From positions 1 to 55,112 of the IMG/VR virus record IMGVR_UViG_3300043399_000050: a DNA stretch of 55,112 bases; one strand, written 5' to 3'. The notes below the pieces were generated by a model that ran no database searches, had not been told where the DNA came from, and saw only the letters and a program-made list of their open reading frames with translations. The translations under genes and the position numbers were made by a program. The DNA is from a virus (taxonomy: Duplodnaviria; Caudoviricetes). Each line of letters opens with the position of its first letter. Within the stretch, counting starts at the first letter, position 1. Shown one piece after another: positions 25,417 to 53,518 of this stretch.

Positions 25417-25417
25417 C

Positions 25418-26401
25418 ATGCGAGCCACATTGCTTAAAGAAACCCTGAAGTCCCTGTTCCCCATTCAGCGTACAGTTGCCATTGAGGGTGCGCCCGGTGG
25501 TGGCAAGACGACCATTGTACATGAAGTTGCCAACGAGTTAGATGTGCCTTGCACCGAGGTGCATATGCCGACAATGCTTGTCGAGGACTTCGGTATCCCC
25601 ACCCTTGACGGTGACCGACTAGCCTACAAGTTGCCACATTGGTATCCTATCAAGGGCAAGTCACCTGACAAGGGCATCTTGCTGTTCGATGACCGCAACC
25701 AAGCAAGCAACGACTTGCAAAAAGTCCTAGCCAACATCTGCCAAGCACGAACCTTACACGGCGTGCCTATGCCTGATGGGTGGCAGGTTATCTCAACGGG
25801 CAACCGACAATCCGACCGAGCAGGTGCTAACCGTATCCTGAGCCATCTACGCAACCGCGAGACTGTGCTTGAGTTTGACACGCACCTTGATGACTTCACG
25901 ACATGGTGTATTGACAACGGTGTAAAGCCTGAGGTGGTGTCGTTCATTCGCTTTAGACCCGGACTACTGCATGACCATGACCCACAACGCGATCAGAACC
26001 CTAGCCCTCGTGCATGGGTTGAGGGTGTTAGCGATGTGATCGGTACTGTGCCACACGATGCAGAGTACGAGTGCTTCAAGGGTGCAGTCGGTGAAGGTGC
26101 GGCGGCAGAGTTTGTAGGTTTCGTTCGCATCTTCCGCAAGTTGCCTAATCCTGATGCAGTCCTGATGAACCCGACCACTAGCGATGTGCCGACTGACCCT
26201 GCCACCCTGTATGCCTTGAGTGGTGCGCTTGCAGAGCGGGCAACAGAGGGCAACTTTGAGCGGGTGACAACCTATGCAGAGCGTATGCCTGCTGACTTCT
26301 CAGTGCTTACTGTGTCCTATGCGTCCCGTAAGAAACCCGAGTTGGCGAACACGCAAGCGTTTACCAAGTGGGCAATGAAACACCAAGATGTATTGTTCTG
26401 A
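25418..26401 (+). CDS. MoxR-like AAA+ ATPase
   Basis: GAPGGGKT Walker A, ILLFDD Walker B, STGN sensor, L.NR arginine finger, SPRAW. Confidence 0.9.
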   Translation: MRATLLKETLKSLFPIQRTVAIEGAPGGGKTTIVHEVANELDVPCTEVHMPTMLVEDFGIPTLDGDRLAYKLPHWYPIKGKSPDKGILLFDDRNQASNDLQKVLANICQARTLHGVPMPDGWQVISTGNRQSDRAGANRILSHLRNRETVLEFDTHLDDFTTWCIDNGVKPEVVSFIRFRPGLLHDHDPQRDQNPSPRAWVEGVSDVIGTVPHDAEYECFKGAVGEGAAAEFVGFVRIFRKLPNPDAVLMNPTTSDVPTDPATLYALSGALAERATEGNFERVTTYAERMPADFSVLTVSYASRKKPELANTQAFTKWAMKHQDVLF

Positions 26402-28453: not shown

Positions 28454-28746
28454 TTAACCTTCCCAATGGCTTTACTCTCAAGAGTAGACAGGTTGGGAAG
28501 ATTGTCGGTAGTGAGTTCGAGTTGATTGTCTACTGGCGCAAAAGTCCACAAGACTTTGCCCGACCTGCCTTTGAACTGCGCAAGCACTTTGACACAACCT
28601 TGTACCAAGCCAAGTATGCAGGCAGGCTAGTCAATGCTTACGAGGTAGGTGGTGGCGACTGGCTACAAGACACCGACCTTGACCGATTGATACTAACCAT
28701 GTGTGCTAAGGCACGAATACTAGGAGGTGGACATGGACATAAGTGA
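28450..28746 (+). CDS. Hypothetical protein
   Basis: 98 aa; ATGA coupled. Confidence 0.6.
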   Translation: MINLPNGFTLKSRQVGKIVGSEFELIVYWRKSPQDFARPAFELRKHFDTTLYQAKYAGRLVNAYEVGGGDWLQDTDLDRLILTMCAKARILGGGHGHK

Positions 28747-29314: not shown

Positions 29315-29315
29315 C

Positions 29316-29951: not shown

Positions 29952-29960
29952 GGAGTTGAC

Positions 29961-40182: not shown

Positions 40183-43050
40183 ATGGACACGCTGAGTTTT
40201 CTTCAGCGAGTTTTACCAACTGAGGGATGGTACTGTGTAGCCAGTTTTGAGGGTGACAATCCAAAACCAAGGCATGGATACTTTGATTCAGTAGAAAAAC
40301 TCGCAAAAGTTATTGTTGCCCTGAACGGGCGTGGGATGAACACCTACTACTCTATCTCCACTTTCAAGGAGAAGCGTAGGCTCAAGGAGAATGTTCAACT
40401 CACCAAAGTCCTAGCCATAGATGTTGATTGTGGCATAGGCAAGAACGGAAAGCCGAAGCCCTTTCCAAATGCAAGTGAGGGCGCAAAGGCTCTTGTTGCT
40501 TTCGTCAAAGCGACAGGGCTACCCATGCCGATGATGATCTCGTCAGGCAACGGCATACATGTTTACTGGATATTGGATGAAGCGATAGCGCCTGAGCAGT
40601 GGAACCCACTGGCTCATGCTTTGAAAGCCGCTTGCTTGAAACACAACTTCACTCCCGACATTGGGGTGACTGGTGATAGCGCACGGATTCTGCGCCCTGT
40701 TGGGTGCGTCAACCCCTTTGGTGGAAAGACCGCAACCTTTATTCGCGACACGCAAGAAGTGTCGTATGCACAACTGTGGTCAATCCTTGAACCATATACA
40801 TCAGGCTCACCGTATGAGCCACCCGAGCGTAAACAATCTACCAGTAAGTTGCTGGATGCTTTGGCAGTCAAGCACGAGTACCAACCCGCAAATCCCGAGC
40901 GCATCATCAATGGATGCCAACAGATCAAATGGGCAGTCGAGCATCAGGACGAAGTGTCCGAACCCATGTGGTACAACCTCATCGGTGTAGCGGCGTTCTG
41001 TAATGAACCTGAGCAGGTAGCCATTGAGTGGAGCAAGAACCACCCCGGCTTTGACCAAACCGCAACCCTCAACAAGTTGCACCATTGGAAGCAGGGCGCG
41101 ACCGGCCCGACGACATGTCCGAAGTTTGAAACCGAACGCCCCGGTGGATGTAAGGGTTGTAAGTTCAAAGACAAGATCGGTAGCCCCGCAAGATTGGGAA
41201 CCCAGTTTGCAGAAGTCAAGTCGATGGCGGCACTTGCTGACCCATTGGCGGCAGAGATTCCAGTACCCAAACCGTTTAAGCGCACCACAGATGGCATGAA
41301 GATGGTGATTGATGACACGGATGTGGATGTGTGTAAGTTTGACTTGTATCCGATTGGATACGGGAGAGACGAGGGGTTGGGTTATGAAGTCGTGCGCTAC
41401 ATGTGGAATCGCCCGCATGTGGGGTGGACTGAGTTAGCCCTACGGCAAGCCCATCTGACTGATGGTAGCCGTGACTTTGCCGCCGCGATTGCCGATCAGG
41501 GCATCGTACTTTTTAACAAGAACCAAACGGGATATTTCCAAATGCTTCTACGCTCATACATGGAGGAGTTGAAGCAACGCCGTGGACTGACCAACCTTTA
41601 TTCTTCAATGGGATGGAAGGATAACTACAACGAGTTTGTCATCGGCAATGCTGTGATGCGCCGTAATGCTAACGGTGAAGTCACCTCCGAACAAATCAAC
41701 CTAGCGGCATCCATTGGTCGAGTCACCGAGGACATGTATGCGTCCAAGGGCTCGCTTGAAGAATGGGTGAACTTCACAAACATCTTGCAGACTGGCGGCT
41801 TGACACTCCACAAGTTCTTGCTAGGCTTCTCATTCGGCACACCGCTACTGAAGATCAGTGGCTTGAAGGGTTTAATCCTGTCGCTCTACGGCAAGACTGG
41901 TGGCGGCAAGACCTTGGGTCAGTACATGATGCAGTCCATTTGGGGCAACCCTGACCTGCTCCATTTCGGTGGCAAGTTCACACAAAATGGTTTGTTCTCT
42001 CGCTTGGCTTTGCATGGCAACACGCCCATGACCGTGGACGAACTGACCATGATGAACAACGAGGAAGCGGGTGACTTACTTTACTGGACTAGCCAAGGGC
42101 GAGACAAGGCAAGATTGAACCGCAACTCCGAGGAACGGGCGATCAAAGAGTGGGCAACCACCTTGACTGCATCCACCAACGAGTCGCTACATAGCAAACT
42201 GTTTGCCCACGGACACGCAACCGATGCGCAACTGGCTCGACTGATTGAGTTCAATGTTCACCCCCATCCACTGTTCATCAAGAACACACAAGTTGGTAGG
42301 CAAATCCACGCTTTTCTAATGAGCAACTACGGACTGGCTGGCCCTGAGTTTATGAAACGCATCATGGTGATGGGCGCACCTGCCGTCAAAGGGATGCTTG
42401 AACATGCTCTTGCGGAGTTCCCCAAAAAGTACGGGGTACATTTTTCAGGCGAAGATCGGTTCATCGAAGCGGGTCTAGTGCTTGCTGACTTGGGCAACCA
42501 ACTTGCCAAAGAGTGGGGCTTAGTCCTGTATGACTATGAGGACGCAACTGCTTGGGCAGTGAATGAAGTCAAGAGCATGAAGTCCGTAGCCGAGGGTAAC
42601 AAGTCAGATGCCTTCGACACCTTGGGGGAGTTCATCAACGAACACATGGATAAGATGGTTAGTGTCAGCCACACCGATGGACAGAAACCCATGCGGGACA
42701 ACACCCGCCCATACATTGATGAGGTGGTTATTCGTTACGACTTCTACCGCAAGAACTTCACTGATGTGTACCACGGTGGTACGGTGCTAATCGAACGCAC
42801 GGCACTACGCAAGTGGTTGTCCCGCAGAGGTGTGGACTTCAAAGGATTCATACGGGAGTTTGAGGAAGAAGGCATCATCGCCACACCCAAGTCGCAGAAG
42901 GCATATTTCGGTAAAGATATTGGGCTAAAGATTCCGCAGTGCTATGTGATTGGCGTCAACCTCAATCACCCACGCTTGCAGGGAATCTTGGATGACGCCG
43001 CTTCTCAGCCTATTGAGAACCTAACGCATGGGCAGTTGAAGGTAGTTTAA
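40183..43050 (+). CDS. Primase (RepB/AEP-like) + PriCT-like + DUF927 helicase
   Basis: DVD, SSGNGIHVYW, RILRP.G..N; C-rich linker; GW motif; YGKTGGGKT Walker A, VDE Walker B, STN. Confidence 0.88.
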   Translation: MDTLSFLQRVLPTEGWYCVASFEGDNPKPRHGYFDSVEKLAKVIVALNGRGMNTYYSISTFKEKRRLKENVQLTKVLAIDVDCGIGKNGKPKPFPNASEGAKALVAFVKATGLPMPMMISSGNGIHVYWILDEAIAPEQWNPLAHALKAACLKHNFTPDIGVTGDSARILRPVGCVNPFGGKTATFIRDTQEVSYAQLWSILEPYTSGSPYEPPERKQSTSKLLDALAVKHEYQPANPERIINGCQQIKWAVEHQDEVSEPMWYNLIGVAAFCNEPEQVAIEWSKNHPGFDQTATLNKLHHWKQGATGPTTCPKFETERPGGCKGCKFKDKIGSPARLGTQFAEVKSMAALADPLAAEIPVPKPFKRTTDGMKMVIDDTDVDVCKFDLYPIGYGRDEGLGYEVVRYMWNRPHVGWTELALRQAHLTDGSRDFAAAIADQGIVLFNKNQTGYFQMLLRSYMEELKQRRGLTNLYSSMGWKDNYNEFVIGNAVMRRNANGEVTSEQINLAASIGRVTEDMYASKGSLEEWVNFTNILQTGGLTLHKFLLGFSFGTPLLKISGLKGLILSLYGKTGGGKTLGQYMMQSIWGNPDLLHFGGKFTQNGLFSRLALHGNTPMTVDELTMMNNEEAGDLLYWTSQGRDKARLNRNSEERAIKEWATTLTASTNESLHSKLFAHGHATDAQLARLIEFNVHPHPLFIKNTQVGRQIHAFLMSNYGLAGPEFMKRIMVMGAPAVKGMLEHALAEFPKKYGVHFSGEDRFIEAGLVLADLGNQLAKEWGLVLYDYEDATAWAVNEVKSMKSVAEGNKSDAFDTLGEFINEHMDKMVSVSHTDGQKPMRDNTRPYIDEVVIRYDFYRKNFTDVYHGGTVLIERTALRKWLSRRGVDFKGFIREFEEEGIIATPKSQKAYFGKDIGLKIPQCYVIGVNLNHPRLQGILDDAASQPIENLTHGQLKVV

Positions 43051-46000
43051 TCGGGGACACCCGCAAGGGTTTCCTCGTCTACCCCATACATGCGCAGAAG
43101 TTCTTTGGCTTCTGCACGACCCGCCTGCGCGGAGGACTTGAGCGCACGAATCGCCATTGGTTTTTTGGCTTCACGGAAAGCACGGTTGACCGAGTTACCA
43201 AAGTTCCTGATCTCAAGGCGTGTACCCTTAGTGGATTCGTTCCACTCACGAATGTAGTCTTTGACTGCGGCTTCTGACTCACGGTCGCCTGACAGACGGG
43301 CAGATACAGAACGGCGCACCGCTTCAGTCTTAATCATCTGCATGTAGGCTTGTTCTTGAGAGTCAGCCATCAACCAGTCCATCTGAGCCTGTGCGCGGGA
43401 TGGATGCCAGCCCATCGCTTTACCCATGATCTCCCAAGTTGTTGCGTTCTGAGAAACTACATAACCTTTCTTGTCCGTAATCGCACCCGTGTTGTGGTAC
43501 TTGAACGCATCGCCAAGGTTAGCGATTGCCCGTACTGGGGAGTCACCCATCAGGGATGTGAAACTCTTGCGACCCGTAACCACTCCGGGGATGGTGTTGA
43601 AGGTGTACTCAAACGCACCTGCCAAGAACGAAGTAGGCGCACCTGCGATGTTGACCACTTCACGAAGAATCTCTTGCTTGGTAGCCGAAGGCTTGAGCAG
43701 ACCAGTGCCGGGGACAATATCGCCAAGACCCAAGCGGTTGGAGAATGACCAGCCAGTGAAGTGGTCAAGCAGACCACGCATCATGATCGGAGTCAGATCG
43801 TTGGCAAGTTCTTCACCCACGGTGTTGCGCAAGATACGAGCAAACTCTTTCTCAATCGAACCAGTCTTGAGGCCAAGACGCTGGGCAATACCATCAACAA
43901 TGTCCAACAAGTCGTCAGAACCCGGTAGTCCTCTCACCCCGGAGAGCAGGAGCAACGACCCAAGCATGATGATTCGCCCTTCGTAATTCATATTCTTGAG
44001 CAACTGAATCATCATAATCGGGTACTGTTTGTACATGTACACGAAGGACTGCAAGCCACCACGGAAGAAAGCAGGGCGGTTGTACTGAGCGTAATCACCT
44101 TGCGTTGCATCAACGGCACGAGTGGCTACCCCACGGGCGGCAATGTCGGCTTGCGTTGTCGTAGCGCCAGAAGCAATCTGCCGATCATACTCACCACGAT
44201 ATGCTGCTAGGAGTGTGACTCGACGGTTGAACTGCTCGGTGTAAGCGAAGGGGAACATCCAAGCCTGAATAAATTTCTGCGCAGTTGGGTTACCAGTGAT
44301 GCGGCGACCACGGCTAGTACCAGTCATGGCGTTGAATTGAGCGGCGTCAAGGCGTTGCTCCTCAGTCATCTGCTCAAGGAAAGACAACTCACCGAGGGTT
44401 AAGCCATCCTTATTGGTCTTAGCACCTGACTTCTGTAAGGCTTCGATTTGATCTTTGATGTACTGAAGGTTGGCGTACTTGAAGTTGCCCACCCGCATAC
44501 CATAGGAAAGCAAAAGCGATGCGGCTTTACCTGCACCCAGTCCGACACCAAAGCCAGTCTTGGGGTTGAAGGTAGACAGGTACGCCCATGAGTTTGTCGG
44601 CAACGAAAGCACTTGCGTTACGCCAGTGGCAATGGAGCCACCTAGTTGGGCAATAGCCGCCCAAGTACGAGCCGCAACCGACCACTCGTTGTTTGTCCAA
44701 ATGTCATCGGCGTGAACGATGTCACCCGTAGAGTCGAGCCAGTCGATCATGGACTTGGCGCGTTCCTTATAGTAGTTACCCTTGGTGACAAACTTATCGT
44801 CAGGAGCCACGGCATTGCCATAATAGTATTTCTCTTGGAAGTACTCGCGTGCTGCCAGTTCTTTGGCTTCACCCTTGGCGGATTCCCACTTCAGGCGCAG
44901 TTCTTCCAGTCGGTCAGCATCGCCTTCCCAGTTCAGTGGGTTGTCAATGATCTCGTCATACTGGTGGCGGAACTCTTTGTTAGCGGCAGTGTAGGCTTGT
45001 TGCTCCAAGAAGGCAGACGCACTACGAACCACATCAGCATCCCAGCCAGCCATACCTGCACGCTGGAGGTTGGCACGAGCGCGGGTGTTTTGTGCCGTGA
45101 CTTTCTTAACGAGCGTGTCGCGCTCACCCGGAGTCAGGCGGATGCCAAGACGGGACAGGGAATACATCACTTCGTCATAGTGCAAGATGTCTACCAGTGC
45201 TGGTGTCTGTTCAGCGACGGAGGCTACGGCACGCAAATAGACGGTCTGTGCAACTCCGTCTTTGTCACGCATCTCATGCTCACCCGCAAGGATGGCATCA
45301 ACTTCATCCTTGACTTCACGGGCGGCTTTCTCGTTTGCCACCTTGGTAAAGAACAGGGAGTCTTGCTGGCTCTGCGACAGACGGACTGGAATCTCTTTGC
45401 CACCTTCCATACGGTAGGCTTGGACACGCACTTGCCAGTCGCCGTCACGGGTCAAGGGTACATAGTTACCAGCGATGGTGCGCTTGGCGTACATCTGATC
45501 GTCATTGATCGAAGCGGCAAACATGGTGCGCTCCTCCACCCGGCGAACCAACGCCCAAATGGAGTTACCGTTCACATCGTCCAACTCAGGGTCAGTACCG
45601 ATGCGCAGTTTGGGGCGCAACCCTTTAACAATCTCGTTGACTTCCTCAGCCGTGTAACCTTTGACGGTCTTAGCCAAGTCGTTCAAGGCAAGGTCAGTGT
45701 AAAGTGAGCGACCAAACTTCTTGTTTAGCCATTCGTTGGCGTTGTCCTCAGACTGTTCGCTTAGTACCAAGCGGTTGTCTTTGTAGACTGCTTCTTCCAT
45801 ACGCATGTCATCGTAGATAGCCACGATGTCGTCAATGAACTTGCGTTCGCGTGCAGTCAGTCCAGACTTGAAAGCATCTCCGATACCAGCCGTAACTGTG
45901 CGGGTCTGTTCATGGATAGCACCCATGTACTTGGAGCGCAGAATATCCACGGCACTATTGGCGATGGTGTCAGAGAACTCTTGGTAGACCTTGTACTCAA

Positions 46001-49000
46001 TAGAGTCCTCGGTCAGGTCTTTGAACCATGCGGGGGTGTCCACCATGTTAGGCACGGCGTAAGTACTCTCGCTCAACTGCTTGGTGTATCTACGCTTGGT
46101 TGCTTCAATCTTACGGTCGAAGTCCCGCTCAGTTTTCTTGATCTTGAGTTGTTGTTCCAACTTGGCTTCTTCGTTATCCAGTTCAGCCAACTTGTCATTC
46201 ATGCGCTTGAGGTTCTTAGCCTTGCCTGCTTCCAATGCCTCAAGGTCAGCCGTTTGGTTAGCGGCAATCTCAGCCCGATGCTCATCGGTCATCGGCACTT
46301 CCTTGAATCCTTGCTGAACCTTAAAGCCTTTCTTGAACTCCTCAAAGGACACCATACCCATCTTCTTCAGGGACTCAATGGCGTCAGCGTTGATACCAAA
46401 AGTCTGCTCGGTCAGGTCGTAGTAGACGGGGTTATCCATCTTAGCCAGTTGGCTATCCGAGTACTGGTTCATGCGCAACAGCGTGGCGTAAGCCATCAAT
46501 TGCCCAGCCCGCAAGTTCTCGTCAGGAGTCATACCCTCGCCCATGCCTAGGAACTTGGCTTCGTGAGCAGTCTTGGTTCCCTCGGCGTAGCGGGTCTTGT
46601 ATTCAGTTTGGCGGGCAGCACGGTTCTGAGTAACCGTAAATACTTTGAAGTAGCCCTTACTCTTGCGAGCCATGTTGTCTTGCGTTTGGATACCGTCAAG
46701 AACTTTCTGTACCACATTACGGACATTAGCCAGTACGCCCTTGCCTTCCTTGCGCATCTTCTCAGCCGTTATCTTGGCTTCAAGTAAGTCTTTCCACGCA
46801 CGCTGGATACCGCCGTACATTGCACGGTTTTGGTTTACATTGTTCAAAGCAAATGTGGCGTCCCCGATTGGCATTGCTTGCGCAAAGCGCAGAACTTCCA
46901 TGTCCGATTGCTCGTTGAGCAGAGACTGATTGACCTCTTTGAAAATGCTAGAGACATTGACTTCAGAACGACCAATGCCTTGACGGATGTACTTGCGTGA
47001 TAGACCAATCAAATAGCGGGCAGAGTCGTCTTGGAAGCGGAAGCCCAACTTGTTGAGTTGGTCTTTGACCCAGTTCCAGAATCGCAGAATGGTGTTCGTA
47101 TCTAGTGCAGCGGCACGGTCAGCCAGTACTTCTTCAACGGCTTCAAGGAACGGGATGTTCTTACCTTGGGCGTACACCTCGGCTGCGTGCGTAAGTGTGG
47201 GGTCAGAATCAGCAACAAGTCGGAGTATCTTGTTCAGTGCAGCATCGCTAAATAAACCACGGAAGCCCACATGCCCCAGCGTTTCGTGGGCAATGATGAA
47301 GCGGGCGTGATCTTCGGAGTAGATGAAGTCCGAGAACAGGACGATGTTGTTGCCCCAAGCCATACCAGCGGCATTAACCGCTTCGATGTCGCCTTCACGG
47401 CGGGCTTTGGCTGCGGCTTCAAACAGCGCAGGGTTTTGCCGTTTCATCTCAGCAAGGTTGGAGAACACCGCCACATTGGGCTTGCGTGCGTAACGGGAGA
47501 TGATGCGGGCAACGAACAGACGCAGCGGGCCAGCCTTCATTGGGTCAGCAGGTTTGCCATCCACACGGAAGAAACTCAGGTCGCCACGGTCAGTACCAGT
47601 CTTGTTGTCCATCAGCGGGTCATACTGAATGTCGTCCAGCGTGGTCTGATCTTCCACATCTTCTAGTTCACGCAGTTCCTTACGGGCTTCGTTGTGCTTC
47701 TTAGTGAAGTCATCACGAGTCATCTTCTCGTCAGTGCGAGTGTTCGGGATGTAGTAGGACTTGCCCGGTGGCTGGGAAACAATCGGCTCACCTTCAGCCG
47801 TAAAGTAATCTTGGATGGTTCCACGAGGGCCAACAACATAGGATGGCTCATCAACCTTGGCGTACAGTTTCTTGAGGTGGTTAACCAACTGCTCTTTCTT
47901 AGGCCACTGAGGGGTGGAGTTCAGAAAGTTAGCCAGTCGCTCCTCAGGAGTAACCAGTTCATTAGCAGGTGGCGTAGTGATTGGGCCAGCCACGGCTTCT
48001 TGTTCAGCCTTGGCTCCGGGTTCACGGACTCGCTCTTGCACAGTGGCGTCGTTCAACAGACCGTTCTCAGCCAGCAGTGCGTACAGACGCGAGTTTGGAC
48101 GGATTACATCTTGGTCAAGAGCAACCTCACGCAGTGCCTGCTGGAAGTCCAGTTTCGATACGCCTTGCTCATGGTCTGCCAAGAAGTTTTCAGATGTCTT
48201 ACGCAGGTAGGTTCGAGGTGCAGAGAACACCAGCGTCTCAACGATGTCGTACAGGGCTTCCGCATAGGCGGCAGCATCCTTGGTTGTCTCAGCCGTTTCA
48301 ATGGCGAGGTCAAGTTCTTCGTTGGCGGCAACTGTTTCTTCAGACGCTTCACGCGGGCCACGCTTGGTTTCACTGGCAACCACGGCAGGCTGGGTAGTTG
48401 TACCCATGATCTGCCCCACCATAGCCGCAATACCACTCGGGCCTTTTTGCAACTTGGCGGCTTTGGGTGCAGGCTGCGCCTTAGCCTCAGTCTTTTTTGC
48501 CGGGGCTTTCTTTAGCGTCTTGCCCCCTTTGGGTGGAGGCGGTGGCTCCTCAGGTGGAGTCTCGGCTACTTTTTCTTCGGCTTTGCCTTTGCGGAGGGCT
48601 TTACCTTTTCCGGCAGGTTCTTTGGCACGCCGTACTTCTTGGCCCACTTCTTCGCCAGTTGGGGTTTCTGGCTGAACAGATACCCCTGCTGCGCCTTGCT
48701 CTTGAACGGCATCTTGTTTCTCCTTACGGGTACGCTTGGGTTTAGCAGGCGGCTGAGGCGTACCTTGGAACTCACCGTCTTTGAACTCGCCATCCATGAC
48801 GGTTCCATCGGAATCCAAGAAACGACCCTGCCCGTGGGGTACGCCATCTTTCATGCCCCCTGTGTAGACACTGCCATCGAAATAAGTCAGGGTTCCCTGA
48901 CCGTTGGGTTCACCGTTGCGCAACTGCCCTTCGTAAACCGAGCCATCCTCATAGGTAAAGATGCCAGTACGCTGGCGCTTGAGTGCTGCACCCCTAGCCG

Positions 49001-51293
49001 CTTGGCTAGTGACTGCTGTAACGGGTGCGCCTGTCGGCGGAATCTGGGCAGCGCCAGCCTGCACGGTCGGTACAACTCGTTGCTGTGTGCCTGCTGAACG
49101 CAGGGCAGCCATCGTGGGCTGACCTTGCTGGGTAAATAGGGACAACTGACCAGCCCGCTGAAACTCTTGCGGGGTAGGACGAGCGACCACAGGAGCGGGG
49201 GCTGGAGCCATAGGAGCCACGGGGCGAGGAGCCGTGCGTGGCGGGATCGGAGCCTGCCGCTGGGTAAAGAGAGGCAACTGACCACCCTGTGTAGACCGAA
49301 GTGCCTGCTGCGTGGGCTGACCACGCTGATTGAACAAGGACATTTGCTGCGGTGTACGAACTGGGACAGGTACAGTCGGTGGGGCAGACGGCATTGTGGA
49401 TGCAGTTTGCGGGGTCATTTCGGGCTGCACACGGGTAAGCGGCATCTGACCGGGGAACAGGGGTAACTGACCAGTCGGAGGGGCAAGCGGAGCCTGCTCA
49501 CCTTGGAATAGACCCATCTGACCTTGCTGAGCCTGAGCCGCTTGAGCAGCCACAGGGGGTAGGTCTTGGAACTCTGCAAGTTGTTGGTCAATCTGTTGCA
49601 GTGCAGTACGGGCTTGCTCCATGTTTTGCCGCAACATGTTGATGCGACCTTGTTGAAGCACGGCCCGTCCACCTGCCATGTCAGACAGTTCTTGCTGGGC
49701 ATCAGTAATGAAGCGAGCCAGTTGAGCGCGTTGGTCAAGCAAAGCCTGACGCTGTTCCATACGAGGAGCCGGGCTAACGGCTGCACCAGCAGGGGGCGTC
49801 CCCATCGGTGGCTCAGGCGGTGCGCCAAACAATTCACCTTGGGTTCCCGGTGGGCCTTCAGGCAGTGTAGGTACTTGAGGCGCACTGCTGGTCATCGAGG
49901 TATCAGGGTTATTACCACCTGACAACAAGTCGGCAGGTTGTTTACCCAATGGGCCGCGACGGAGGTTTGCACCTGCTCCAATCGTTCCACCCACACCAAA
50001 GCCAGCGGCAAACGACTCAATCAAGCGGTCAATGTTTTCTTCGCTACCAAAGTCCTGCCCAGTCAAACCAAGCAGCATGGACTCTTGTCCAACTTCAGTC
50101 AGACCTTCAGCAGGGCCACCGATAGCAACACCTTTGGCTCCGCGTTTGAGTAGTTCGCCGCCGCGCTTAGCCCCCGTGGTTAGAAGGTTTGTACCCTGAA
50201 TATCCTTGAGCGCAGTCGCGCCTGAGCGTGGGGACAGACCACCAACACCAAACAGACGAGACGCAAGCAGGTACTCAGGCAAAGACTCCAGCAGGGCGTA
50301 AGGCACGCCACCAAGGAAGGCAGAGGTTCTTGCGCCTACATCTTCGGGGCCAGCACCCTGTTCACGGAACTCACCGTAAATATCAGAGATACCCATGCCG
50401 TAGTTCTGCGCCGTGCTTGCTGCAACCGCACCCGTAATACCTGCGGCTTGGCGTAGAAACTTCTCATCGAAGGCTTGGCCTGCGGCACGCTTGGCTAGTT
50501 CACGCTCAACCTTGTCGGCAAATTCTTTCTTACCAGCCGTGCTGGCAAGCCACTGACCGACACGAGGAAGTATCGCACTACCACCTGCACCCGTAGCAGC
50601 CAATGGGCCACCAAGGAAATAACCACCCGCAGCAGCCGCAATCGAACCAAGGATGTTCGGCCCTTGTTGGGCAACCGTTGCAGCCAGCCAGTCAATGGCT
50701 CCACCCGCCGAGTCAATCTCTTGGAACTCACGGCGGTACGGCAGGTTCTTACGGATGTCCTCGTACTGACGGTCAACAATGTTCTGACCAACTTCCTCAG
50801 CGCCAAACAACTGCAAACCACGACCAGCAAGTTGCTGCATCTGATCCACACCGATGCCAAAGTTCTTGGACATCAACCGACCAAGGCCGGGGTTACGAAT
50901 CTGATTGGCTAGTTGGGAGTATGTATCGGGTGTCAGCGTAATCCAGTCGCCACCTTTGGGTAGACCTACGGGAGGTTGCCCAAGCAACTGCTCAGCACGC
51001 AGAGTCATGTCAGCGTCGTCCTCATCAAAGGTGACGCCTTGCACAAACAACTTCTTCTGCGACGGACTGTACGCAATAGCAGGTTCAGTCTGAACCTGCT
51101 GGGTTTGGAACTGCGGAACTTGGGCAAGCGCGGCCTGACCAGCAGCCGCTAGACCTGCGGCGGCTTCTTGCGTGGACAAGCCAGAACTACCCTGCCCCGG
51201 ATACAAAAACCCGTAAGCACTCATGCTCCTAGCGAGTTGATCGTTAGGAGTTGAGTAGATCGGGTCTGTCAAACTTGGCCCCGCTTTAGCCAT
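43047..51293 (-). CDS. Giant internal virion/DNA-ejection polyvalent protein (2748 aa)
   Basis: Last and largest of three ejection-type genes; hydrophobic Gly/Ala N-domain, QxxLF array, MORN repeats, HETLGH zincin motif, helical C-terminus. Confidence 0.85.
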   Translation of the reverse strand: MAKAGPSLTDPIYSTPNDQLARSMSAYGFLYPGQGSSGLSTQEAAAGLAAAGQAALAQVPQFQTQQVQTEPAIAYSPSQKKLFVQGVTFDEDDADMTLRAEQLLGQPPVGLPKGGDWITLTPDTYSQLANQIRNPGLGRLMSKNFGIGVDQMQQLAGRGLQLFGAEEVGQNIVDRQYEDIRKNLPYRREFQEIDSAGGAIDWLAATVAQQGPNILGSIAAAAGGYFLGGPLAATGAGGSAILPRVGQWLASTAGKKEFADKVERELAKRAAGQAFDEKFLRQAAGITGAVAASTAQNYGMGISDIYGEFREQGAGPEDVGARTSAFLGGVPYALLESLPEYLLASRLFGVGGLSPRSGATALKDIQGTNLLTTGAKRGGELLKRGAKGVAIGGPAEGLTEVGQESMLLGLTGQDFGSEENIDRLIESFAAGFGVGGTIGAGANLRRGPLGKQPADLLSGGNNPDTSMTSSAPQVPTLPEGPPGTQGELFGAPPEPPMGTPPAGAAVSPAPRMEQRQALLDQRAQLARFITDAQQELSDMAGGRAVLQQGRINMLRQNMEQARTALQQIDQQLAEFQDLPPVAAQAAQAQQGQMGLFQGEQAPLAPPTGQLPLFPGQMPLTRVQPEMTPQTASTMPSAPPTVPVPVRTPQQMSLFNQRGQPTQQALRSTQGGQLPLFTQRQAPIPPRTAPRPVAPMAPAPAPVVARPTPQEFQRAGQLSLFTQQGQPTMAALRSAGTQQRVVPTVQAGAAQIPPTGAPVTAVTSQAARGAALKRQRTGIFTYEDGSVYEGQLRNGEPNGQGTLTYFDGSVYTGGMKDGVPHGQGRFLDSDGTVMDGEFKDGEFQGTPQPPAKPKRTRKEKQDAVQEQGAAGVSVQPETPTGEEVGQEVRRAKEPAGKGKALRKGKAEEKVAETPPEEPPPPPKGGKTLKKAPAKKTEAKAQPAPKAAKLQKGPSGIAAMVGQIMGTTTQPAVVASETKRGPREASEETVAANEELDLAIETAETTKDAAAYAEALYDIVETLVFSAPRTYLRKTSENFLADHEQGVSKLDFQQALREVALDQDVIRPNSRLYALLAENGLLNDATVQERVREPGAKAEQEAVAGPITTPPANELVTPEERLANFLNSTPQWPKKEQLVNHLKKLYAKVDEPSYVVGPRGTIQDYFTAEGEPIVSQPPGKSYYIPNTRTDEKMTRDDFTKKHNEARKELRELEDVEDQTTLDDIQYDPLMDNKTGTDRGDLSFFRVDGKPADPMKAGPLRLFVARIISRYARKPNVAVFSNLAEMKRQNPALFEAAAKARREGDIEAVNAAGMAWGNNIVLFSDFIYSEDHARFIIAHETLGHVGFRGLFSDAALNKILRLVADSDPTLTHAAEVYAQGKNIPFLEAVEEVLADRAAALDTNTILRFWNWVKDQLNKLGFRFQDDSARYLIGLSRKYIRQGIGRSEVNVSSIFKEVNQSLLNEQSDMEVLRFAQAMPIGDATFALNNVNQNRAMYGGIQRAWKDLLEAKITAEKMRKEGKGVLANVRNVVQKVLDGIQTQDNMARKSKGYFKVFTVTQNRAARQTEYKTRYAEGTKTAHEAKFLGMGEGMTPDENLRAGQLMAYATLLRMNQYSDSQLAKMDNPVYYDLTEQTFGINADAIESLKKMGMVSFEEFKKGFKVQQGFKEVPMTDEHRAEIAANQTADLEALEAGKAKNLKRMNDKLAELDNEEAKLEQQLKIKKTERDFDRKIEATKRRYTKQLSESTYAVPNMVDTPAWFKDLTEDSIEYKVYQEFSDTIANSAVDILRSKYMGAIHEQTRTVTAGIGDAFKSGLTARERKFIDDIVAIYDDMRMEEAVYKDNRLVLSEQSEDNANEWLNKKFGRSLYTDLALNDLAKTVKGYTAEEVNEIVKGLRPKLRIGTDPELDDVNGNSIWALVRRVEERTMFAASINDDQMYAKRTIAGNYVPLTRDGDWQVRVQAYRMEGGKEIPVRLSQSQQDSLFFTKVANEKAAREVKDEVDAILAGEHEMRDKDGVAQTVYLRAVASVAEQTPALVDILHYDEVMYSLSRLGIRLTPGERDTLVKKVTAQNTRARANLQRAGMAGWDADVVRSASAFLEQQAYTAANKEFRHQYDEIIDNPLNWEGDADRLEELRLKWESAKGEAKELAAREYFQEKYYYGNAVAPDDKFVTKGNYYKERAKSMIDWLDSTGDIVHADDIWTNNEWSVAARTWAAIAQLGGSIATGVTQVLSLPTNSWAYLSTFNPKTGFGVGLGAGKAASLLLSYGMRVGNFKYANLQYIKDQIEALQKSGAKTNKDGLTLGELSFLEQMTEEQRLDAAQFNAMTGTSRGRRITGNPTAQKFIQAWMFPFAYTEQFNRRVTLLAAYRGEYDRQIASGATTTQADIAARGVATRAVDATQGDYAQYNRPAFFRGGLQSFVYMYKQYPIMMIQLLKNMNYEGRIIMLGSLLLLSGVRGLPGSDDLLDIVDGIAQRLGLKTGSIEKEFARILRNTVGEELANDLTPIMMRGLLDHFTGWSFSNRLGLGDIVPGTGLLKPSATKQEILREVVNIAGAPTSFLAGAFEYTFNTIPGVVTGRKSFTSLMGDSPVRAIANLGDAFKYHNTGAITDKKGYVVSQNATTWEIMGKAMGWHPSRAQAQMDWLMADSQEQAYMQMIKTEAVRRSVSARLSGDRESEAAVKDYIREWNESTKGTRLEIRNFGNSVNRAFREAKKPMAIRALKSSAQAGRAEAKELLRMYGVDEETLAGVPD
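48566..48712 (-). CDS. Overprinted 48-aa basic protein in an alternative frame of the giant gene
   Basis: AAGGAG 7 nt before ATG; MPFKSKAQQGYLFSQKPQLAKKWAKKYG resembles a recurrent small phage protein family. Confidence 0.6.
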   Translation of the reverse strand: MPFKSKAQQGYLFSQKPQLAKKWAKKYGVPKNLPEKVKPSAKAKPKKK

Positions 51294-51295
51294 AA

Positions 51296-53518
51296 TTACC
51301 TCTCAGTTACTTGCTGTGGTGCATTAACTGCACTCCAGATTCCAGTAGTGTTAATACCGCTAACTCGTGCAGCCGTTGGGCCAACCTGCGCAGTGTTACC
51401 ACCAATGGTAATCGTCTTAGTCTCAGGGTCAATGATATAAATTTCCCCAGCAGGATTGCTATAAGAAATTTGCCCCGTGCTAAGTGCGGTTGCCTTAAAG
51501 CCAGCGTTCTCCATTTTCTTCTTAGCCAACTCAAAGTTACCTTTGATGAGTTCAGCATTGGCCTCACGAACACCTTGGAGGTACTGCTTGCTAGATTCTT
51601 CCCGTATTTTCAGTTCGGACTCAAAAGCCTTATCACCACGGGCGGTCTGAATCTCAGCCAACTTCGCACGGTAGGCAGCATCCACGCGGGAGCGTACCAA
51701 CTGCTCAACTTGTGGGCCAGTCAGATTCACACCGTTCTTAGCCACTTGACCGTTGATGTACAGGTCATAGTTACCGTCAGGGCGTTGCAAGACTTGGTGC
51801 GGCGCATTAGTAAAGGTAGACAAGACCGACATGGCACGGCTGAAGTTACCAGTAGTGGCTCCTTCATACACACCCCAGTCTGCTTGGTTCTTGTACATGC
51901 CAAGGTCAAGTGCTTGAATTTTGCCTACGGTTTCCCATGCCTTATCGCCCATGCCGTATTGCGCATACAACTTGACATCTTCCTGCAACTTACTGCGGAT
52001 TGTTAGAAGTTGCCGAACCTCAGGATTCTGGGCATTAGGAGGCAGCGCGGCTGGGCCTTGCATCGTGCCTGAAGTGGCAGGTGCAGGGGGTTTTACCGCT
52101 TGAGACGCAGCAGTTGCGACTTGAGTCGCGTTACCAGACTGGACTGCTGTTGCCACTTGTTGAGTCGGGCTAGGAAGTCGTGGAGCATTTGCATTGCTTG
52201 CAGTGACCACTGCCGCACCTTGGTTAAAGCCGAGCGCAATACCTGTTTCGATTGTTCGAGCATCATAAGGAACCTTTCCGTTCTCCATTTGGATGATGCC
52301 GCGAACCAACTTTTCCATCGTAGCGGGGTCTTGCACATCGACTACATCATCCGGTTTAACTCCAAGTTGCTCAGTCAAAAACTTCGTGTACGACGCACGA
52401 TCAGTCGTAGTCCAGTTGTTGACGATACCCCGAATGGTGTTGACCCCACGGTTGTTGTAGGACATCAGGTTCATCGTCATGGCACGGATGCCAGCCTCAG
52501 GCGTATCGAAACGAACGAACTCGCCATCGTTGACATAGTTGCCATTGGCATCTTTCATCGACCCTTTCCACGGGGAGTCGGGGGAGAACTTGATATTGCC
52601 GGGGTTGTTATTGCGCAGACCACGGACAGGATTACCCTTGTCGTCAAGCATCCAGTCGGCGTACCCTTCGGCTACTGCCTTTTGTGCGTTAGCAGAACGA
52701 GTCTTTTCGGCGGCAGTGGCTTTTTGGGTTTCAGTCTTGCGTAGATTCTCAATCAGTTGGGCTTCAGTAAGTGGGCGGTTTGCCTGCTCAGCCTGACGAA
52801 CCATGTCGTAGTAAGGCGTAGCCGTACCAGAACCAATCGTGGGAATCTCCACACGGGTAACATCAGGATCATAGATACCAAGCGCACGACCAAGGCGTGG
52901 GACACCAATCTGGTTTGCCAACCAAGTACCACCTTGAGCAACGGCATTAACTGGGCCACCAACAAAGATGTCAGCAGCAGCCGCAGGAGCCTTACCCAAA
53001 GCAGAGCGGTCAATAGCAGCCTGACGCCGCTGGTTTTCAAACTGCAAACGGCGTACCCGCTCAGCATCAGGAAGCGCCTGAAACTCAGCAACACTTAACT
53101 GTTCAGTAGGTACATTGAGCAACTGCTCAGGAGTACGCAAACCAGCGGGGCGAGCGGCAGGTGCAGCGGTTGCAGCAGGTGCAGCAGGTGTAGTCGTAAG
53201 GGGCCGTACTTCAATCTGTGGCGTTGGCACAGGGTATGCGGTCGCTCCACCTGCGGAAGGCGGAACTTGCAACCCACCTTGCGGTGCGGCTGACGGCGTG
53301 CCAAAGGCTTGCCCCGGTGCTTGGTCGAATTGCAAAAGCGGCTGGTTAGCCGCGTTGATTGCACTCTGACCTTGCTTCGCCCGAATCTCGTTGAGTTTGT
53401 TTAACTCTTGAATCTGTAGTTCGCGTTGTCGTTGCGCGAGTAAAGCATCTTCAGCCGCACGCTGGCGGCTGGCGATGACACCCATGCTACTTGCGAACTG
53501 TCCTAGGCTGAGAGCCAT
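51296..53518 (-). CDS. Internal virion protein with lysozyme-like domain
   Basis: RGLRNNNPGNI...F..F.TPE.G.RAM...L..Y...G..TI..I...W...I.MENG at 52278-52625; GGGAGG RBS. Confidence 0.8.
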   Translation of the reverse strand: MALSLGQFASSMGVIASRQRAAEDALLAQRQRELQIQELNKLNEIRAKQGQSAINAANQPLLQFDQAPGQAFGTPSAAPQGGLQVPPSAGGATAYPVPTPQIEVRPLTTTPAAPAATAAPAARPAGLRTPEQLLNVPTEQLSVAEFQALPDAERVRRLQFENQRRQAAIDRSALGKAPAAAADIFVGGPVNAVAQGGTWLANQIGVPRLGRALGIYDPDVTRVEIPTIGSGTATPYYDMVRQAEQANRPLTEAQLIENLRKTETQKATAAEKTRSANAQKAVAEGYADWMLDDKGNPVRGLRNNNPGNIKFSPDSPWKGSMKDANGNYVNDGEFVRFDTPEAGIRAMTMNLMSYNNRGVNTIRGIVNNWTTTDRASYTKFLTEQLGVKPDDVVDVQDPATMEKLVRGIIQMENGKVPYDARTIETGIALGFNQGAAVVTASNANAPRLPSPTQQVATAVQSGNATQVATAASQAVKPPAPATSGTMQGPAALPPNAQNPEVRQLLTIRSKLQEDVKLYAQYGMGDKAWETVGKIQALDLGMYKNQADWGVYEGATTGNFSRAMSVLSTFTNAPHQVLQRPDGNYDLYINGQVAKNGVNLTGPQVEQLVRSRVDAAYRAKLAEIQTARGDKAFESELKIREESSKQYLQGVREANAELIKGNFELAKKKMENAGFKATALSTGQISYSNPAGEIYIIDPETKTITIGGNTAQVGPTAARVSGINTTGIWSAVNAPQQVTER

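What the first reader, a model, noticed from the sequence alone, without database searches (positions are those of the whole stretch)
49134..49841. Array of six beta-clamp-binding-like motifs in an injected virion protein
Seen: QGELF (49827-49841), QMGLF (49506-49520), QLPLF (49455-49469), QMSLF (49332-49346), QLPLF (49266-49280) and QLSLF (49134-49148) within a Pro/Gln-rich disordered stretch of ~235 aa; two are followed by a repeated F.Q.GQPT..ALRS unit. Established: QL[S/D]LF is the DnaN clamp-binding consensus. Inference: a virion-delivered multivalent clamp sponge or recruiter acting before phage gene expression, either stalling host replication or tethering incoming DNA to host clamps; the phage has PolA but no clamp of its own.
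Basis: partly seen in the sequence, partly recalled or inferred. Interest (0 to 1): 0.8.

Follow-up and report, generated by a model that had tools for sequence, protein, structure and literature searches.

The report
Clamp-binding motif array in phage ejection protein
A giant virion protein of an uncultured short-tailed phage carries, in a flexible linker, several conserved short motifs that closely match the peptides bacterial proteins use to grip the DNA sliding clamp, so the phage may hook onto the host's replication machinery.

Summary
All six Q..LF pentapeptides lie at the stated coordinates in a 2748-aa ORF (43047-51293, minus strand). Composition predicts 0.13 in that stretch, and 0 of 200,000 shuffles gave 5 or more.

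The motifs are conserved. Of 121 proteins, 119 keep at least one. Two units about 44 aa apart recur even at about 30% overall identity. Their substitution pattern is invariant Q, aliphatic or Met, any residue, L/M, then F. This matches the published clamp-binding rule Q-phi-x-[L/M]-[F/L].

A complex model places QLSLF in the canonical cleft of E. coli DnaN. The score is 0.71 against 0.00 for the best control. This may reflect memory of solved clamp-peptide complexes.

The C-terminal domain is homologous to giant F116-group structural proteins, which a paper classes as T7 gp16-like ejection proteins carrying cytoplasm-destined cargo.

Six motifs is a trait of the closest clade only. A "sponge" role, action before gene expression and a betaproteobacterial host are not supported. 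Binding itself is untested. I rate it a new variant of a known kind.

The parts
43047..51293 (-). Giant gene, 2748 aa (P0001). It is the last gene of the structural/ejection block.
   Evidence: ORF list and translation. 231 homologs with E<=1e-3, of which 120 are listed, mostly 2560-2960 aa on contigs of about 54-56 kb.
48999..49961 (-). Linker, aa 445-765. It is poorly conserved, Q/P/A-rich, and carries the motif array.
   Evidence: Composition: P, Q, A, G, S and T together make up 0.65 here, against 0.36 in aa 1001-2748. In the alignment only the short motifs are conserved.
49827..49841 (-). QGELF (aa 485). In most relatives this place holds family motif M1, 'QGVLD[IV]FG'.
   Evidence: M1 found in 68 of 145 long family proteins. 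It does not fit phi at position 2.
49506..49520 (-). QMGLF (aa 592). In relatives this place holds family motif M2, 'Q[GLM]ALQF', a hexameric form.
   Evidence: Q592 is invariant and L595 nearly invariant in 48 sequences. Q..LQF occurs 117 times in 145 proteins, including QLALQF 30 and QMALQF 18.
49455..49469 (-). QLPLF (aa 609), an extra copy specific to the query's clade.
   Evidence: A Q..LF at this position occurs only in P0001-P0006.
49293..49346 (-). QMSLF plus NQRGQPTQQALRS (aa 650-667). It sits at the family's unit A position but carries a unit-B-like tail.
   Evidence: P648, L653 and F654 are invariant, and Q650 is nearly invariant. Context.
49224..49280 (-). QLPLF plus TQRQAPIPPRTAPR (aa 672-690), with a degenerate unit A tail.
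   Evidence: P682 is invariant; P684 and R690 are nearly invariant. Family unit A reads 'QLxLFxRRQAPxPSRAEGLRRGVG'.
49089..49148 (-). Unit B: QLSLF plus TQQGQPTMAALRSAG (aa 716-735). This is the best-conserved unit and the one docked on DnaN in the model.
   Evidence: Q716, G724 and A730 are invariant. Profile. Model contacts at aa 713-720, 722, 724, 726, 729-730 and 732-735.
48771..48977 (-). MORN repeats (aa 773-841), directly after the array.
   Evidence: Pfam PF02493, E=3.3e-9. PHROG 7324 covers aa 773-841.
47271..47288 (-). Invariant H-E-x-x-x-H (aa 1336-1341, 'HETLGH') in a conserved central domain. It may be a zincin-like site with an unusual spacing.
   Evidence: H1336, E1337, G1340 and H1341 are invariant in 48 sequences. 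The distant relatives P0165 and P0168 have HExxH at the equivalent place. Atlas lead to LPD1/LPD5, score 0.89.
43146..44429 (-). C-terminal PLxRFG domain (aa 2289-2716), shared with giant structural proteins of F116-like Pseudomonas phages.
   Evidence: NCBIfam NF032893, 154.1 bits against a cut-off of 100. PHROG 11358. tblastn finds 40 phage records. The Epa33 'structural protein' of 3799 aa.
51296..53518 (-). Upstream neighbour, 740 aa, with a transglycosylase/lysozyme-type domain. It is a likely ejection protein.
   Evidence: PHROGs 873, 2276 and 7182, the last named 'tail injection transglycosylase'.
26384..26398 (+). QDVLF at the exact C-terminus of the MoxR-like AAA ATPase (gene 25388-26401). 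This is a possible second clamp-type motif in the same phage.
   Evidence: All 120 listed homologs end in [QS][DENS][VI]LF. The tail is absent from 3 of 3 distant homologs checked.

Best explanation
The 2748-aa protein is a T7-gp16-type (IVP-D-like) internal virion or ejection protein of an uncultured podovirus. Its N-terminal two-thirds is cargo meant to act inside the host cell.

Its flexible linker (aa ~445-765) carries short linear motifs that bind the hydrophobic cleft of the host beta sliding clamp (DnaN). The family core has four motifs:
- two pentameric units about 44 aa apart, unit A 'QLxLF..PSRAEGLRRG' and unit B 'Q-phi-xLFTQxGxPSxAALKSAG';
- a hexameric 'Q.ALQF';
- a 'QGVLDIF'.

The window's clade has remodelled these into six Q..LF copies.

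What is shown: the motifs exist, are enriched, are conserved with the clamp-motif substitution pattern, and are compatible with the cleft in a model.

What is inferred:
- The protein is packaged and ejected.
- The linker reaches the cytoplasm.
- The pair of units, at a conserved spacing, can occupy both clefts of one clamp dimer.
- The effect is to tether the ejection complex, the entering genome or the later-made protein to DNA-loaded clamps at host replication sites, or locally to displace clamp clients. Titrating all clamps is less likely.
For: 1. Enrichment. There are 6 motifs against 0.13 expected, and 0 of 200,000 shuffles gave 5 or more. Across 48 diverse homologs the linker holds 109 Q..LF against 3.64 expected (the rows are related, so they are not independent).

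2. Conservation in a poorly conserved linker. 119 of 121 proteins keep at least one motif there. In 157 distinct profile-aligned rows:
- Unit A: Q 151/152; position 2 L127 M17 I4; position 3 free (P59 E36 S22 D20 and others); position 4 L149/152; position 5 F145/152.
- Unit B: Q 150/150; position 2 L54 V37 M26 I17 G10; position 3 free; position 4 L103 M46; position 5 F138 I9 L2.
This is the published rule Q-phi-x-[L/M][F/L], with position 3 tolerant and Leu/Phe preferred at the end. The hexamer rule Q-phi-x-[L/M]-x-[F/L] fits QLALQF and QMALQF (passages of PMC11139829).

3. Spacing between units A and B is 43-46 aa in 115 of the 146 proteins where both were found, although the sequence between them varies.

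4. Complex model of two E. coli DnaN chains with aa 703-742:
- Score 0.71 (runs 0.71, 0.69, 0.72); best of 3 controls 0.00.
- The mark was reached by 58 of 80 solved complexes and 2 of 110 mismatched pairs. The tool says these counts hold only roughly, because my own alignment was used and the job was not a pair of single chains.
- The runs agree in at least 74% of contacts, and the partner's pLDDT is at least 64.
- Contacts cover 11 of 12 subsite I residues and 7 of 8 subsite II residues as listed in PMC11139829.
- Q716 and L717 sit against 175, 320 and 362-364; L719 and F720 sit against 172, 174-177, 242, 247 and 360.
- Clamp-peptide complexes are solved, so this shows likeness and may come from memory.
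- 7 of the 8 conserved unit B positions (Q716, F720, Q722, G724, P726, A730, A734; not L731) are among the modelled contacts.

5. Ejection-protein context:
- The C-terminal PLxRFG domain scores 154 bits against a cut-off of 100.
- It matches the C-terminus of giant F116-group 'structural proteins'.
- PMC4819975 (passages) classes the F116-group giant protein as a T7 IVP-D homolog fused to domains that must act intracellularly.
- The neighbouring gene carries a transglycosylase-type domain, and an internal virion protein (PHROG 511) lies on the same strand.

6. Precedent. Phage Mu MuC binds the E. coli clamp through two near-consensus motifs, and L-to-A changes abolish binding (passages of PMC12867686).

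7. Specificity:
- 0 motifs in the 3799-aa Epa33 giant protein.
- 3 Q..[LM]F in the other 12,512 aa of this phage.
- One of those 3 is the exact C-terminus of an AAA ATPase, conserved in 120 of 120 close homologs and absent in 3 of 3 distant ones.
Against: - No binding measurement exists. The only test is a model that can pass from memory of solved clamp-peptide complexes, and it used E. coli DnaN as a stand-in for an unknown host.
- The conserved units extend 15-19 residues beyond the pentapeptide. Classical clamp motifs do not need this, so the units may serve another or an additional partner.
- Pro is the commonest residue at position 3. The review reports position 3 as tolerant but gives no data on Pro there.
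- QGELF and the common forms of M1 and M2 (QGVLDIF, QGALQF) have Gly at position 2 and fall outside the canonical rule.
- One lineage (P0079, P0089) lacks the motifs altogether.
- Packaging, ejection and cytoplasmic exposure are inferred from homology of the C-terminal domain only. The literature on PLxRFG proteins is thin.
- The phage has its own PolA, helicase and primase, so it has no obvious need for the host clamp.
Confidence: 0.6

Rival explanations
1. The Q-phi-xLF units are docking peptides for a partner other than DnaN. Candidates are a phage component such as the portal, the capsid interior, another ejection protein or the MoxR-like ATPase, or another host hub. The likeness to clamp motifs would then be convergent.
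For: - The conserved units are about 20-24 aa, longer than a clamp pentapeptide. Invariant downstream residues (G724, P726, A730; 'PSRAEGLRRG' in unit A) have no role in known clamp motifs.
- The module occurs only in this protein family: 53 hits in 1.84 billion representatives, all the same family or its fragments except one repeat-driven hit. This would suit a family-internal assembly contact.
- A Q..LF tail on the phage's own ATPase could mean a shared phage-encoded partner.
Against: - The five core positions follow the published clamp rule position by position in two independent units and in the hexamer form.
- The model puts each core residue in its canonical subsite, and the conserved downstream residues on the clamp surface.
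- No candidate alternative partner is known.
Confidence: 0.2
2. The motifs are maturation or processing sites. A prohead protease, or the protein's own HExxxH domain, would cut the giant protein in the linker to release cargo domains.
For: - Conserved short motifs lie in disordered linkers between domains.
- An invariant H-E-x-x-x-H site lies in the central domain.
- There is an Atlas lead to domains associated with large polyvalent proteins, score 0.89, which is only a lead.
Against: - No protease specificity of this form was found in any call.
- Four to six near-identical sites within 250 aa would be unusual for processing.
- A conserved 43-46 aa spacing is not needed for cleavage.
- The clamp-motif pattern would be a coincidence.
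Confidence: 0.08
3. Unit B is a BRC-like peptide that binds the host recombinase RecA, as BRCA2 repeats bind RAD51, to block SOS induction or recombination.
For: The module profile hit one eukaryote-like protein with 16 tandem BRC-type repeats (P0162, E=7.7e-8, 16 stretches). The match aligns '..LFDEGG..GLQTAGG..' with '..LFTQEG..ALKSAG..'. Naming these repeats as BRC repeats rests on my recall.
Against: - The score of 48.7 bits is summed over 16 repeats, about 3 bits each. No single repeat is significant.
- The match spans the junction of two repeats, so the module order is reversed relative to one BRC repeat.
- It does not explain unit A, M1 or M2.
- It does not explain the invariant Q four residues before the F.
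Confidence: 0.03
4. The array is a by-product of composition or of recent tandem duplication and has no function.
For: - The window's extra copies (aa 609, and the 650/672 mosaic) arose by local duplication or recombination within one clade.
- The linker is low in complexity.
Against: - 0 of 200,000 shuffles reach 5 motifs.
- The two core units persist in relatives with about 30-35% overall identity, while the flanking linker sequence does not.
Confidence: 0.01

Closest known systems
Phage Mu late activator MuC (Mor/C family) and its two clamp-binding motifs
   Same: It is a phage protein with more than one near-consensus clamp motif (QHDLF, QPDLF) that binds host DnaN. The motifs are conserved across the family (passages of PMC12867686).
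   Different: MuC is a small transcription factor made after infection, with motifs at its termini. Here the motifs form an internal array in a 2748-aa virion-associated protein, fit the consensus better (QLSLF, QLPLF, and QLDLF or QLELF in relatives), and carry conserved tails of 15-19 aa.
Cellular clamp clients (Pol II, Pol III alpha, Pol IV, Pol V, Hda, MutS/MutL, delta) and transposases that use Q-phi-x-[L/M][F/L]
   Same: The same core pattern and position tolerances, and the same modelled docking in subsites I and II. The Mu paper notes that some transposases also bind the clamp.
   Different: Those proteins carry one or two motifs, beside or inside an enzyme that works on DNA. No polymerase, nuclease or transposase domain was detected in this protein.
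T7 gp16 / IVP-D family ejection proteins with cytoplasm-destined cargo (N4 gp50 virion RNA polymerase; H66 gp60 and F116 p60 with methylase-like domains)
   Same: A giant protein at the end of the structural block. Its C-terminal domain is homologous to the F116-group giant structural proteins, and the N-terminal part plausibly acts inside the cell.
   Different: The cargo here is a clamp-motif array, MORN repeats and an HExxxH domain, not a recognisable polymerase or methylase. The Epa33 homolog has no Q..LF at all. IVP-D homology of this protein rests on the F116-group link. I did not test it directly against T7 gp16.
Plasmid RK2 initiator TrfA and staphylococcal phage proteins that target DnaN (recalled, not seen in any call)
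   Same: Mobile-element proteins that engage the host clamp, either to build a replisome on their own DNA or to stop host replication.
   Different: They are made in the cell, not delivered in the particle, and are single-site binders. This comparison rests on memory only.

Membership tests
Beta-clamp (DnaN) ligands with a canonical clamp-binding motif | Core sequence Q-phi-x-[L/M]-[F/L] or Q-phi-x-[L/M]-x-[F/L] (PMC11139829, passages) | tested here: met
   Five of the six window motifs fit if Met counts as phi; QGELF does not. Family units A and B fit in nearly all of 157 rows. M2 fits as QLALQF or QMALQF in 48 occurrences, but has Gly at position 2 in 54 QGALQF.
Beta-clamp (DnaN) ligands with a canonical clamp-binding motif | Position-specific tolerance: Gln strongly kept, position 2 aliphatic, position 3 free, Leu/Met then Phe (Leu or Ile tolerated) | tested here: met
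   Counts per position in 157 distinct rows for two units, compared with the review text.
Beta-clamp (DnaN) ligands with a canonical clamp-binding motif | Motif lies in an exposed, flexible segment or at a terminus | tested here: inconclusive
   The linker is Q/P/A-rich and unconserved apart from the motifs. No structure or disorder predictor was run on it.
Beta-clamp (DnaN) ligands with a canonical clamp-binding motif | Docks in the cleft between domains II and III (subsites I and II) | tested here: met
   Model only. Score 0.71 against a best control of 0.00. 11 of 12 subsite I and 7 of 8 subsite II residues are in contact, and the residue-to-subsite assignment is canonical. The result may come from memory of solved complexes, and E. 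coli DnaN was a stand-in.
Beta-clamp (DnaN) ligands with a canonical clamp-binding motif | Measured binding to DnaN that is lost on changing the LF | not testable with these tools
   Needs ITC, fluorescence polarisation, two-hybrid or pull-down assays.
PLxRFG domain proteins (NCBIfam NF032893) | Score above the curated cut-off | tested here: met
   154.1 bits against a cut-off of 100, at aa 2289-2716.
T7 gp16-type (IVP-D) ejection proteins | Sequence homology to the IVP-D family | tested here: inconclusive
   The link is indirect. The C-terminal 400-500 aa match F116-group giant proteins at 27-28% identity, with E down to 3e-13. PMC4819975 joins that group to IVP-D by profile comparison. No direct comparison with T7 gp16 was run.
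T7 gp16-type (IVP-D) ejection proteins | Present in the virion and ejected on infection | not testable with these tools
   The phage is uncultured. There is only gene position next to a transglycosylase-bearing protein and other structural genes.
BRC repeats (RAD51/RecA-binding) | Significant match of a single repeat, with FxxA-type and LFDE-type modules in the BRC order | tested here: not met
   About 3 bits per repeat. The match spans two repeats with the module order reversed.
Large polyvalent proteins of phages and conjugative elements (LPD domains) | Match to an LPD or polyvalent-protein domain model | tested here: inconclusive
   No Pfam hit at E<=0.01 other than MORN. The only sign is an Atlas lead to LPD1/LPD5, score 0.89 at rank 24.

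The most novel reading that the evidence does not exclude
A podovirus ejection protein uses a bivalent-to-multivalent array of clamp-binding peptides to seize DNA-loaded host sliding clamps at the moment of infection. This would physically couple the ejection complex and the entering genome to the host replisome or nucleoid. A second clamp-type tail on the phage's AAA ATPase would act on the same hub. That would be a delivery-stage host-takeover mechanism with no described counterpart.
Probability: 0.2. Interest if true: 0.85.

Novelty: new variant of a known kind. Interest (0 to 1): 0.62.

Why it matters
Clamp-binding peptides are a well-understood way to reach the bacterial replisome, and the same cleft is a drug target.

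Phage use of the host clamp has so far been shown for proteins made after infection, such as Mu MuC. I found no paper that links clamp-binding motifs with virion or ejection proteins:
- 'clamp-binding' together with 'virion protein' returned 0 papers.
- None of the papers listed makes the link. Those calls list only the top 15-20 of their hits.
- Subscription journals are not covered by these searches.

If the array binds DnaN, three things follow:
- It would show that giant ejection proteins can carry short-motif cargo aimed at a host hub.
- It would give a function to a large, abundant family of uncultured phages: 231 homologs, many on contigs of about 55 kb.
- It would supply natural extended peptides of about 20 aa that may bind the cleft region more broadly than the pentapeptide.

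The claim is directly testable with synthetic peptides.

Tried and rejected
- Megablast of 13 kb of the window against phage records found nothing.
- A profile of the full-length family against PDB sequences gave no meaningful hit. The best was E=0.44 on the MORN region.
- A genome-contig scan returned two short MAG fragments, labelled Verrucomicrobiota and Armatimonadia, which say nothing reliable about the host.
- The listing of cluster members gave no names for six NCBI-sourced homologs.
- AF2 of the AAA ATPase with a shallow alignment (24 rows at 79-94% identity) gave mean pLDDT 50.7. That is too poor for a fold search, so none was run.
- Sequence searches place the ATPase only as a generic or MoxR-like AAA.
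- The idea that the phage encodes its own clamp was checked three ways:
  - There is no PF00712 match in the record.
  - The unannotated 282-aa ORF beside the ATPase gives only a DUF3150 lead.
  - Other unannotated ORFs of 195-312 aa were not folded, so a novel clamp is not excluded.
- The BRC-repeat likeness of unit B was considered and rejected as repeat-inflated.
- The 'sponge from the virion' reading was set aside on recalled copy numbers, not on a calculation here.
- Supplementary files of the papers were not available. The MuC family motif logo and the beta-clamp contact tables are in supplements I could not see.

Full report
**What is there**

The finding lies in one very long ORF, window 43047-51293 on the minus strand, 2748 aa. 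A pattern scan finds Q..LF at aa 485, 592, 609, 650, 672 and 716. The motifs at 650 and 716 are followed by NQRGQPTQQALRS and TQQGQPTMAALRS, as described.

In aa 471-740, six of the nine Phe residues are the F of a Q..LF. Residue shuffles of that segment give a mean of 0.13 motifs. None of 200,000 shuffles gave five or more.

**The protein and its setting**

The window is a whole virus record of 55,112 bp. PHROG, Pfam and NCBIfam scans show a podovirus-type layout:
- terminase, portal, tail fibres with T7-like N-termini, and an internal virion protein (PHROG 511);
- a 740-aa protein with a transglycosylase-type domain directly upstream of the giant gene;
- on the other strand, a MoxR-like AAA ATPase, PolA, an exonuclease, an SNF2-type helicase and a DUF927 primase-helicase.

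The portal is closest to Rhizobium phages (36.7% identity). It is next closest to HMO-2011-type roseophages and pelagiphages at about 26%. The cultured relatives therefore infect Alphaproteobacteria, and the host of this phage is unknown.

The giant protein has only three recognisable pieces:
- MORN repeats at aa 773-841.
- An invariant H-E-x-x-x-H at aa 1336-1341 in a conserved central domain.
- A C-terminal PLxRFG domain (NF032893, 154 bits against a cut-off of 100).

The PLxRFG domain matches the C-terminus of giant 'structural proteins' of F116-like Pseudomonas phages. Hardies et al. (PMC4819975; passages read) class the F116-group giant protein as a homolog of T7 internal virion protein D (gp16). 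They note that such proteins host 'domains destined for the cytoplasm', N4 virion RNA polymerase being the best-known case. 'Injected virion protein' is therefore a reasonable inference, but it rests on this indirect homology and on gene position. I did not test it directly.

**Conservation**

A word-indexed search found 231 homologs, 120 of them listed. Most are 2560-2960 aa and sit on contigs of about 54-56 kb. Of 121 proteins including the query, 119 have at least one Q..[LM]F in the linker. Only the query and five relatives at 81% identity or more have five or six. The exceptions are P0079 and P0089, which carry LGGP-type repeats instead.

An alignment of 48 diverse members shows a linker that is otherwise poorly conserved but holds four conserved short motifs:

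| Motif | Family consensus | Query equivalent |
|---|---|---|
| M1 | QGVLD[IV]FG | QGELF (aa 485) |
| M2 | Q[GLM]ALQFAPPAP | QMGLF (aa 592) |
| Unit A | PQQLxLFxRRQAPxPSRAEGLRRGVG | QMSLF (650) and QLPLF (672), a mosaic |
| Unit B | Q-phi-xLFTQxGQPSxAALKSAG | QLSLF (aa 716) |

In query numbering, Q592, P648, L653, F654, P682, Q716, G724 and A730 are invariant.

A profile built from the two-unit module (A1) was run against 1.84 billion representatives. It found 53 proteins at E<=1e-3. All are the same family or its fragments, with two kinds of exception. Two shorter relatives of about 2000 aa have a different N-terminus but keep M1 or M2 together with unit A. One further hit is driven by tandem repeats and is discussed below.

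Units A and B were both found in 146 of 171 family proteins. They lie 43-46 aa apart in 115 of those 146. The detection used regular expressions that miss some variants.

**Do the motifs behave like clamp-binding motifs?**

The review PMC11139829 (passages read) defines natural clamp-binding motifs as Q-phi-x-[L/M][F/L] and Q-phi-x-[L/M]-x-[F/L]. Its account of each position is:
- Gln is important.
- Position 2 is usually aliphatic, with Leu best.
- Position 3 is largely free.
- Leu followed by Phe is the best ending, and Leu or Ile is tolerated in place of Phe.

In 157 distinct profile-aligned rows the counts are:

| Position | Unit A | Unit B |
|---|---|---|
| 1 | Q 151/152 | Q 150/150 |
| 2 | L127 M17 I4 | L54 V37 M26 I17 G10 |
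| 3 | P59 E36 S22 D20 and others | P83 S23 A19 I10 and others |
| 4 | L149 | L103 M46 |
| 5 | F145 | F138 I9 L2 |

M2 occurs as QLALQF (30) and QMALQF (18), the hexamer form, and as QGALQF (54), which lacks the aliphatic residue. This position-by-position agreement in independent units is the strongest sequence argument for the clamp reading.

Three points go against a simple clamp peptide:
- Each unit is conserved for another 15-19 residues.
- Pro dominates position 3.
- M1, much of M2 and the query's QGELF fall outside the canonical rule.

**Model of the complex**

One controlled job was allowed. I modelled two E. coli DnaN chains with aa 703-742 (unit B), using the family alignment.

- The verdict was that the model supports binding. 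The score was 0.71 (runs 0.71, 0.69, 0.72), and the best of three controls scored 0.00.
- The mark was reached by 58 of 80 solved complexes and 2 of 110 mismatched pairs. The tool warns that these counts hold only roughly, because my own alignment was used and the job was not a pair of single chains.
- The runs agree in at least 74% of contacts, and the partner's pLDDT is at least 64.
- The contacts include 11 of 12 subsite I residues and 7 of 8 subsite II residues listed in the review.
- Q716 and L717 lie against 175, 320 and 362-364. L719 and F720 lie against 172, 174-177, 242, 247 and 360. This is the canonical pose.
- Seven of the eight conserved unit B positions (Q716, F720, Q722, G724, P726, A730, A734; not L731) are among the modelled contacts. 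An extended interface could therefore explain the long conserved tail.

Many clamp-peptide complexes are solved, so the pass may come from memory. It shows likeness, not binding. E. coli DnaN is also only a stand-in for the unknown host, although the review states that the cleft is conserved and that clamps of different species bind the same ligands.

**Specificity checks**

The 3799-aa giant protein of the F116-like phage Epa33 has no Q..LF at all. The other 38 ORFs of this phage, 12,512 aa in total, have three Q..[LM]F.

One of those three is the exact C-terminus, QDVLF, of the MoxR-like ATPase at 25388-26401. All 120 listed homologs at 79% identity or more end in [QS][DENS][VI]LF. Three of three more distant homologs lack this tail: two N4-like phages and a Rhizobium phage. 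This is a second, lineage-specific motif of the same type in the same phage group. It is one evolutionary event, so it is weak support, and position 2 is Asp.

**Most likely mechanism**

I consider it most likely (about 0.6) that the linker motifs bind the host beta clamp.

The conserved pair at a conserved spacing suits bivalent binding to the two clefts of one clamp dimer. That is inference.

From recalled figures, not from any call, ejection proteins are present in a few copies per particle, while cells hold hundreds of clamps. Two alternatives fit better: tethering the ejection complex or entering DNA to DNA-loaded clamps, or local competition with clamp clients. Titration by the much larger amount of protein made late in infection is also possible. 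The MORN repeats directly after the array could anchor the complex at the membrane; this too is inference.

A precedent exists. Phage Mu MuC binds the E. coli clamp through two near-consensus motifs. L-to-A changes abolish the binding, and overexpression is lethal.

**Rivals**

- Another partner, phage or host, with convergent likeness to clamp motifs (0.2). The long conserved tails and the restriction of the module to this family favour it.
- Processing sites for a protease, possibly the protein's own HExxxH domain (0.08).
- A BRC-like RecA-binding peptide (0.03). This was suggested by a hit to a protein with 16 BRC-type repeats. The hit scores only about 3 bits per repeat and has the module order reversed.
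- Composition or duplication without function (0.01). The conservation data contradict it.

**Novelty**

Clamp-binding motifs in mobile-element and phage proteins are known. I found no paper linking them to virion or ejection proteins:
- 'clamp-binding' with 'virion protein' returned 0 papers.
- None of the papers listed makes the link. Those calls list only the top 15-20 hits, and subscription journals are not covered.

I rate this a new variant of a known kind. It is directly testable with peptides.

**Limits**

- Binding, packaging and cytoplasmic delivery are all untested.
- The host is unknown.
- Only one unit was modelled.
- Paper supplements were closed.

Noticed in passing
window 25388-26401 (+); motif at 26384-26398: The MoxR-like AAA ATPase that opens the replication block ends exactly in QDVLF. 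All 120 listed homologs (79% identity or more) end in [QS][DENS][VI]LF, whereas 3 of 3 distant homologs in N4-like and Rhizobium phages lack the tail. It may be a second clamp-type motif. The TTG start may be about 10 codons too early, since most homologs are 327-329 aa.
   Followed up: partly
P0162, against unit B of window 49089-49148: The two-unit profile hit a 1215-aa eukaryote-like protein with 16 tandem repeats that I recognise, from memory, as BRC-type (BRCA2-like). The hit is inflated by the repeats, at about 3 bits per repeat, and is probably meaningless. It does raise a RecA-binding idea.
   Followed up: partly
window 47271-47288 (-), aa 1336-1341 of the giant protein: An invariant H-E-x-x-x-H ('HETLGH') lies in a conserved central domain. 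The distant 2000-aa relatives P0165 and P0168 have a standard HExxH at the equivalent place. The Atlas gives only a lead to LPD1/LPD5 polyvalent-protein domains.
   Followed up: partly
window 28727-30833 (+): The ORF 29316-29951 gives a sub-threshold Pfam match to Nmad5, a nucleotide-modification-associated domain (23.2 bits against a cut-off of 27). It is flanked by unannotated ORFs, so this may be a DNA-modification cluster.
   Followed up: no
window 48771-48977 (-), aa 773-841: MORN repeats follow the motif array directly. They are present in many family members but not all, according to the precomputed Pfam column.
   Followed up: no
window ends: 2-304 (-) and 53531-55111 (-): The minus-strand structural block runs off both ends of the window. 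The ORF 2-304 is open at the window edge, and another ORF ends at 55111. The record therefore looks like a permuted or cut complete genome whose structural operon wraps around.
   Followed up: no
P0079 and P0089 (homologs): One lineage of the family has replaced the whole motif-bearing linker with 'P.LGGP / LGAPP' repeats and has no Q..LF. This is a natural loss-of-motif variant that could serve as a comparison.
   Followed up: no
window 51045-51059 (-), aa 79-83: QKKLF in the conserved N-terminal domain recurs in many homologs. It lies in a well-conserved, presumably folded region, so I did not count it in the array.
   Followed up: no
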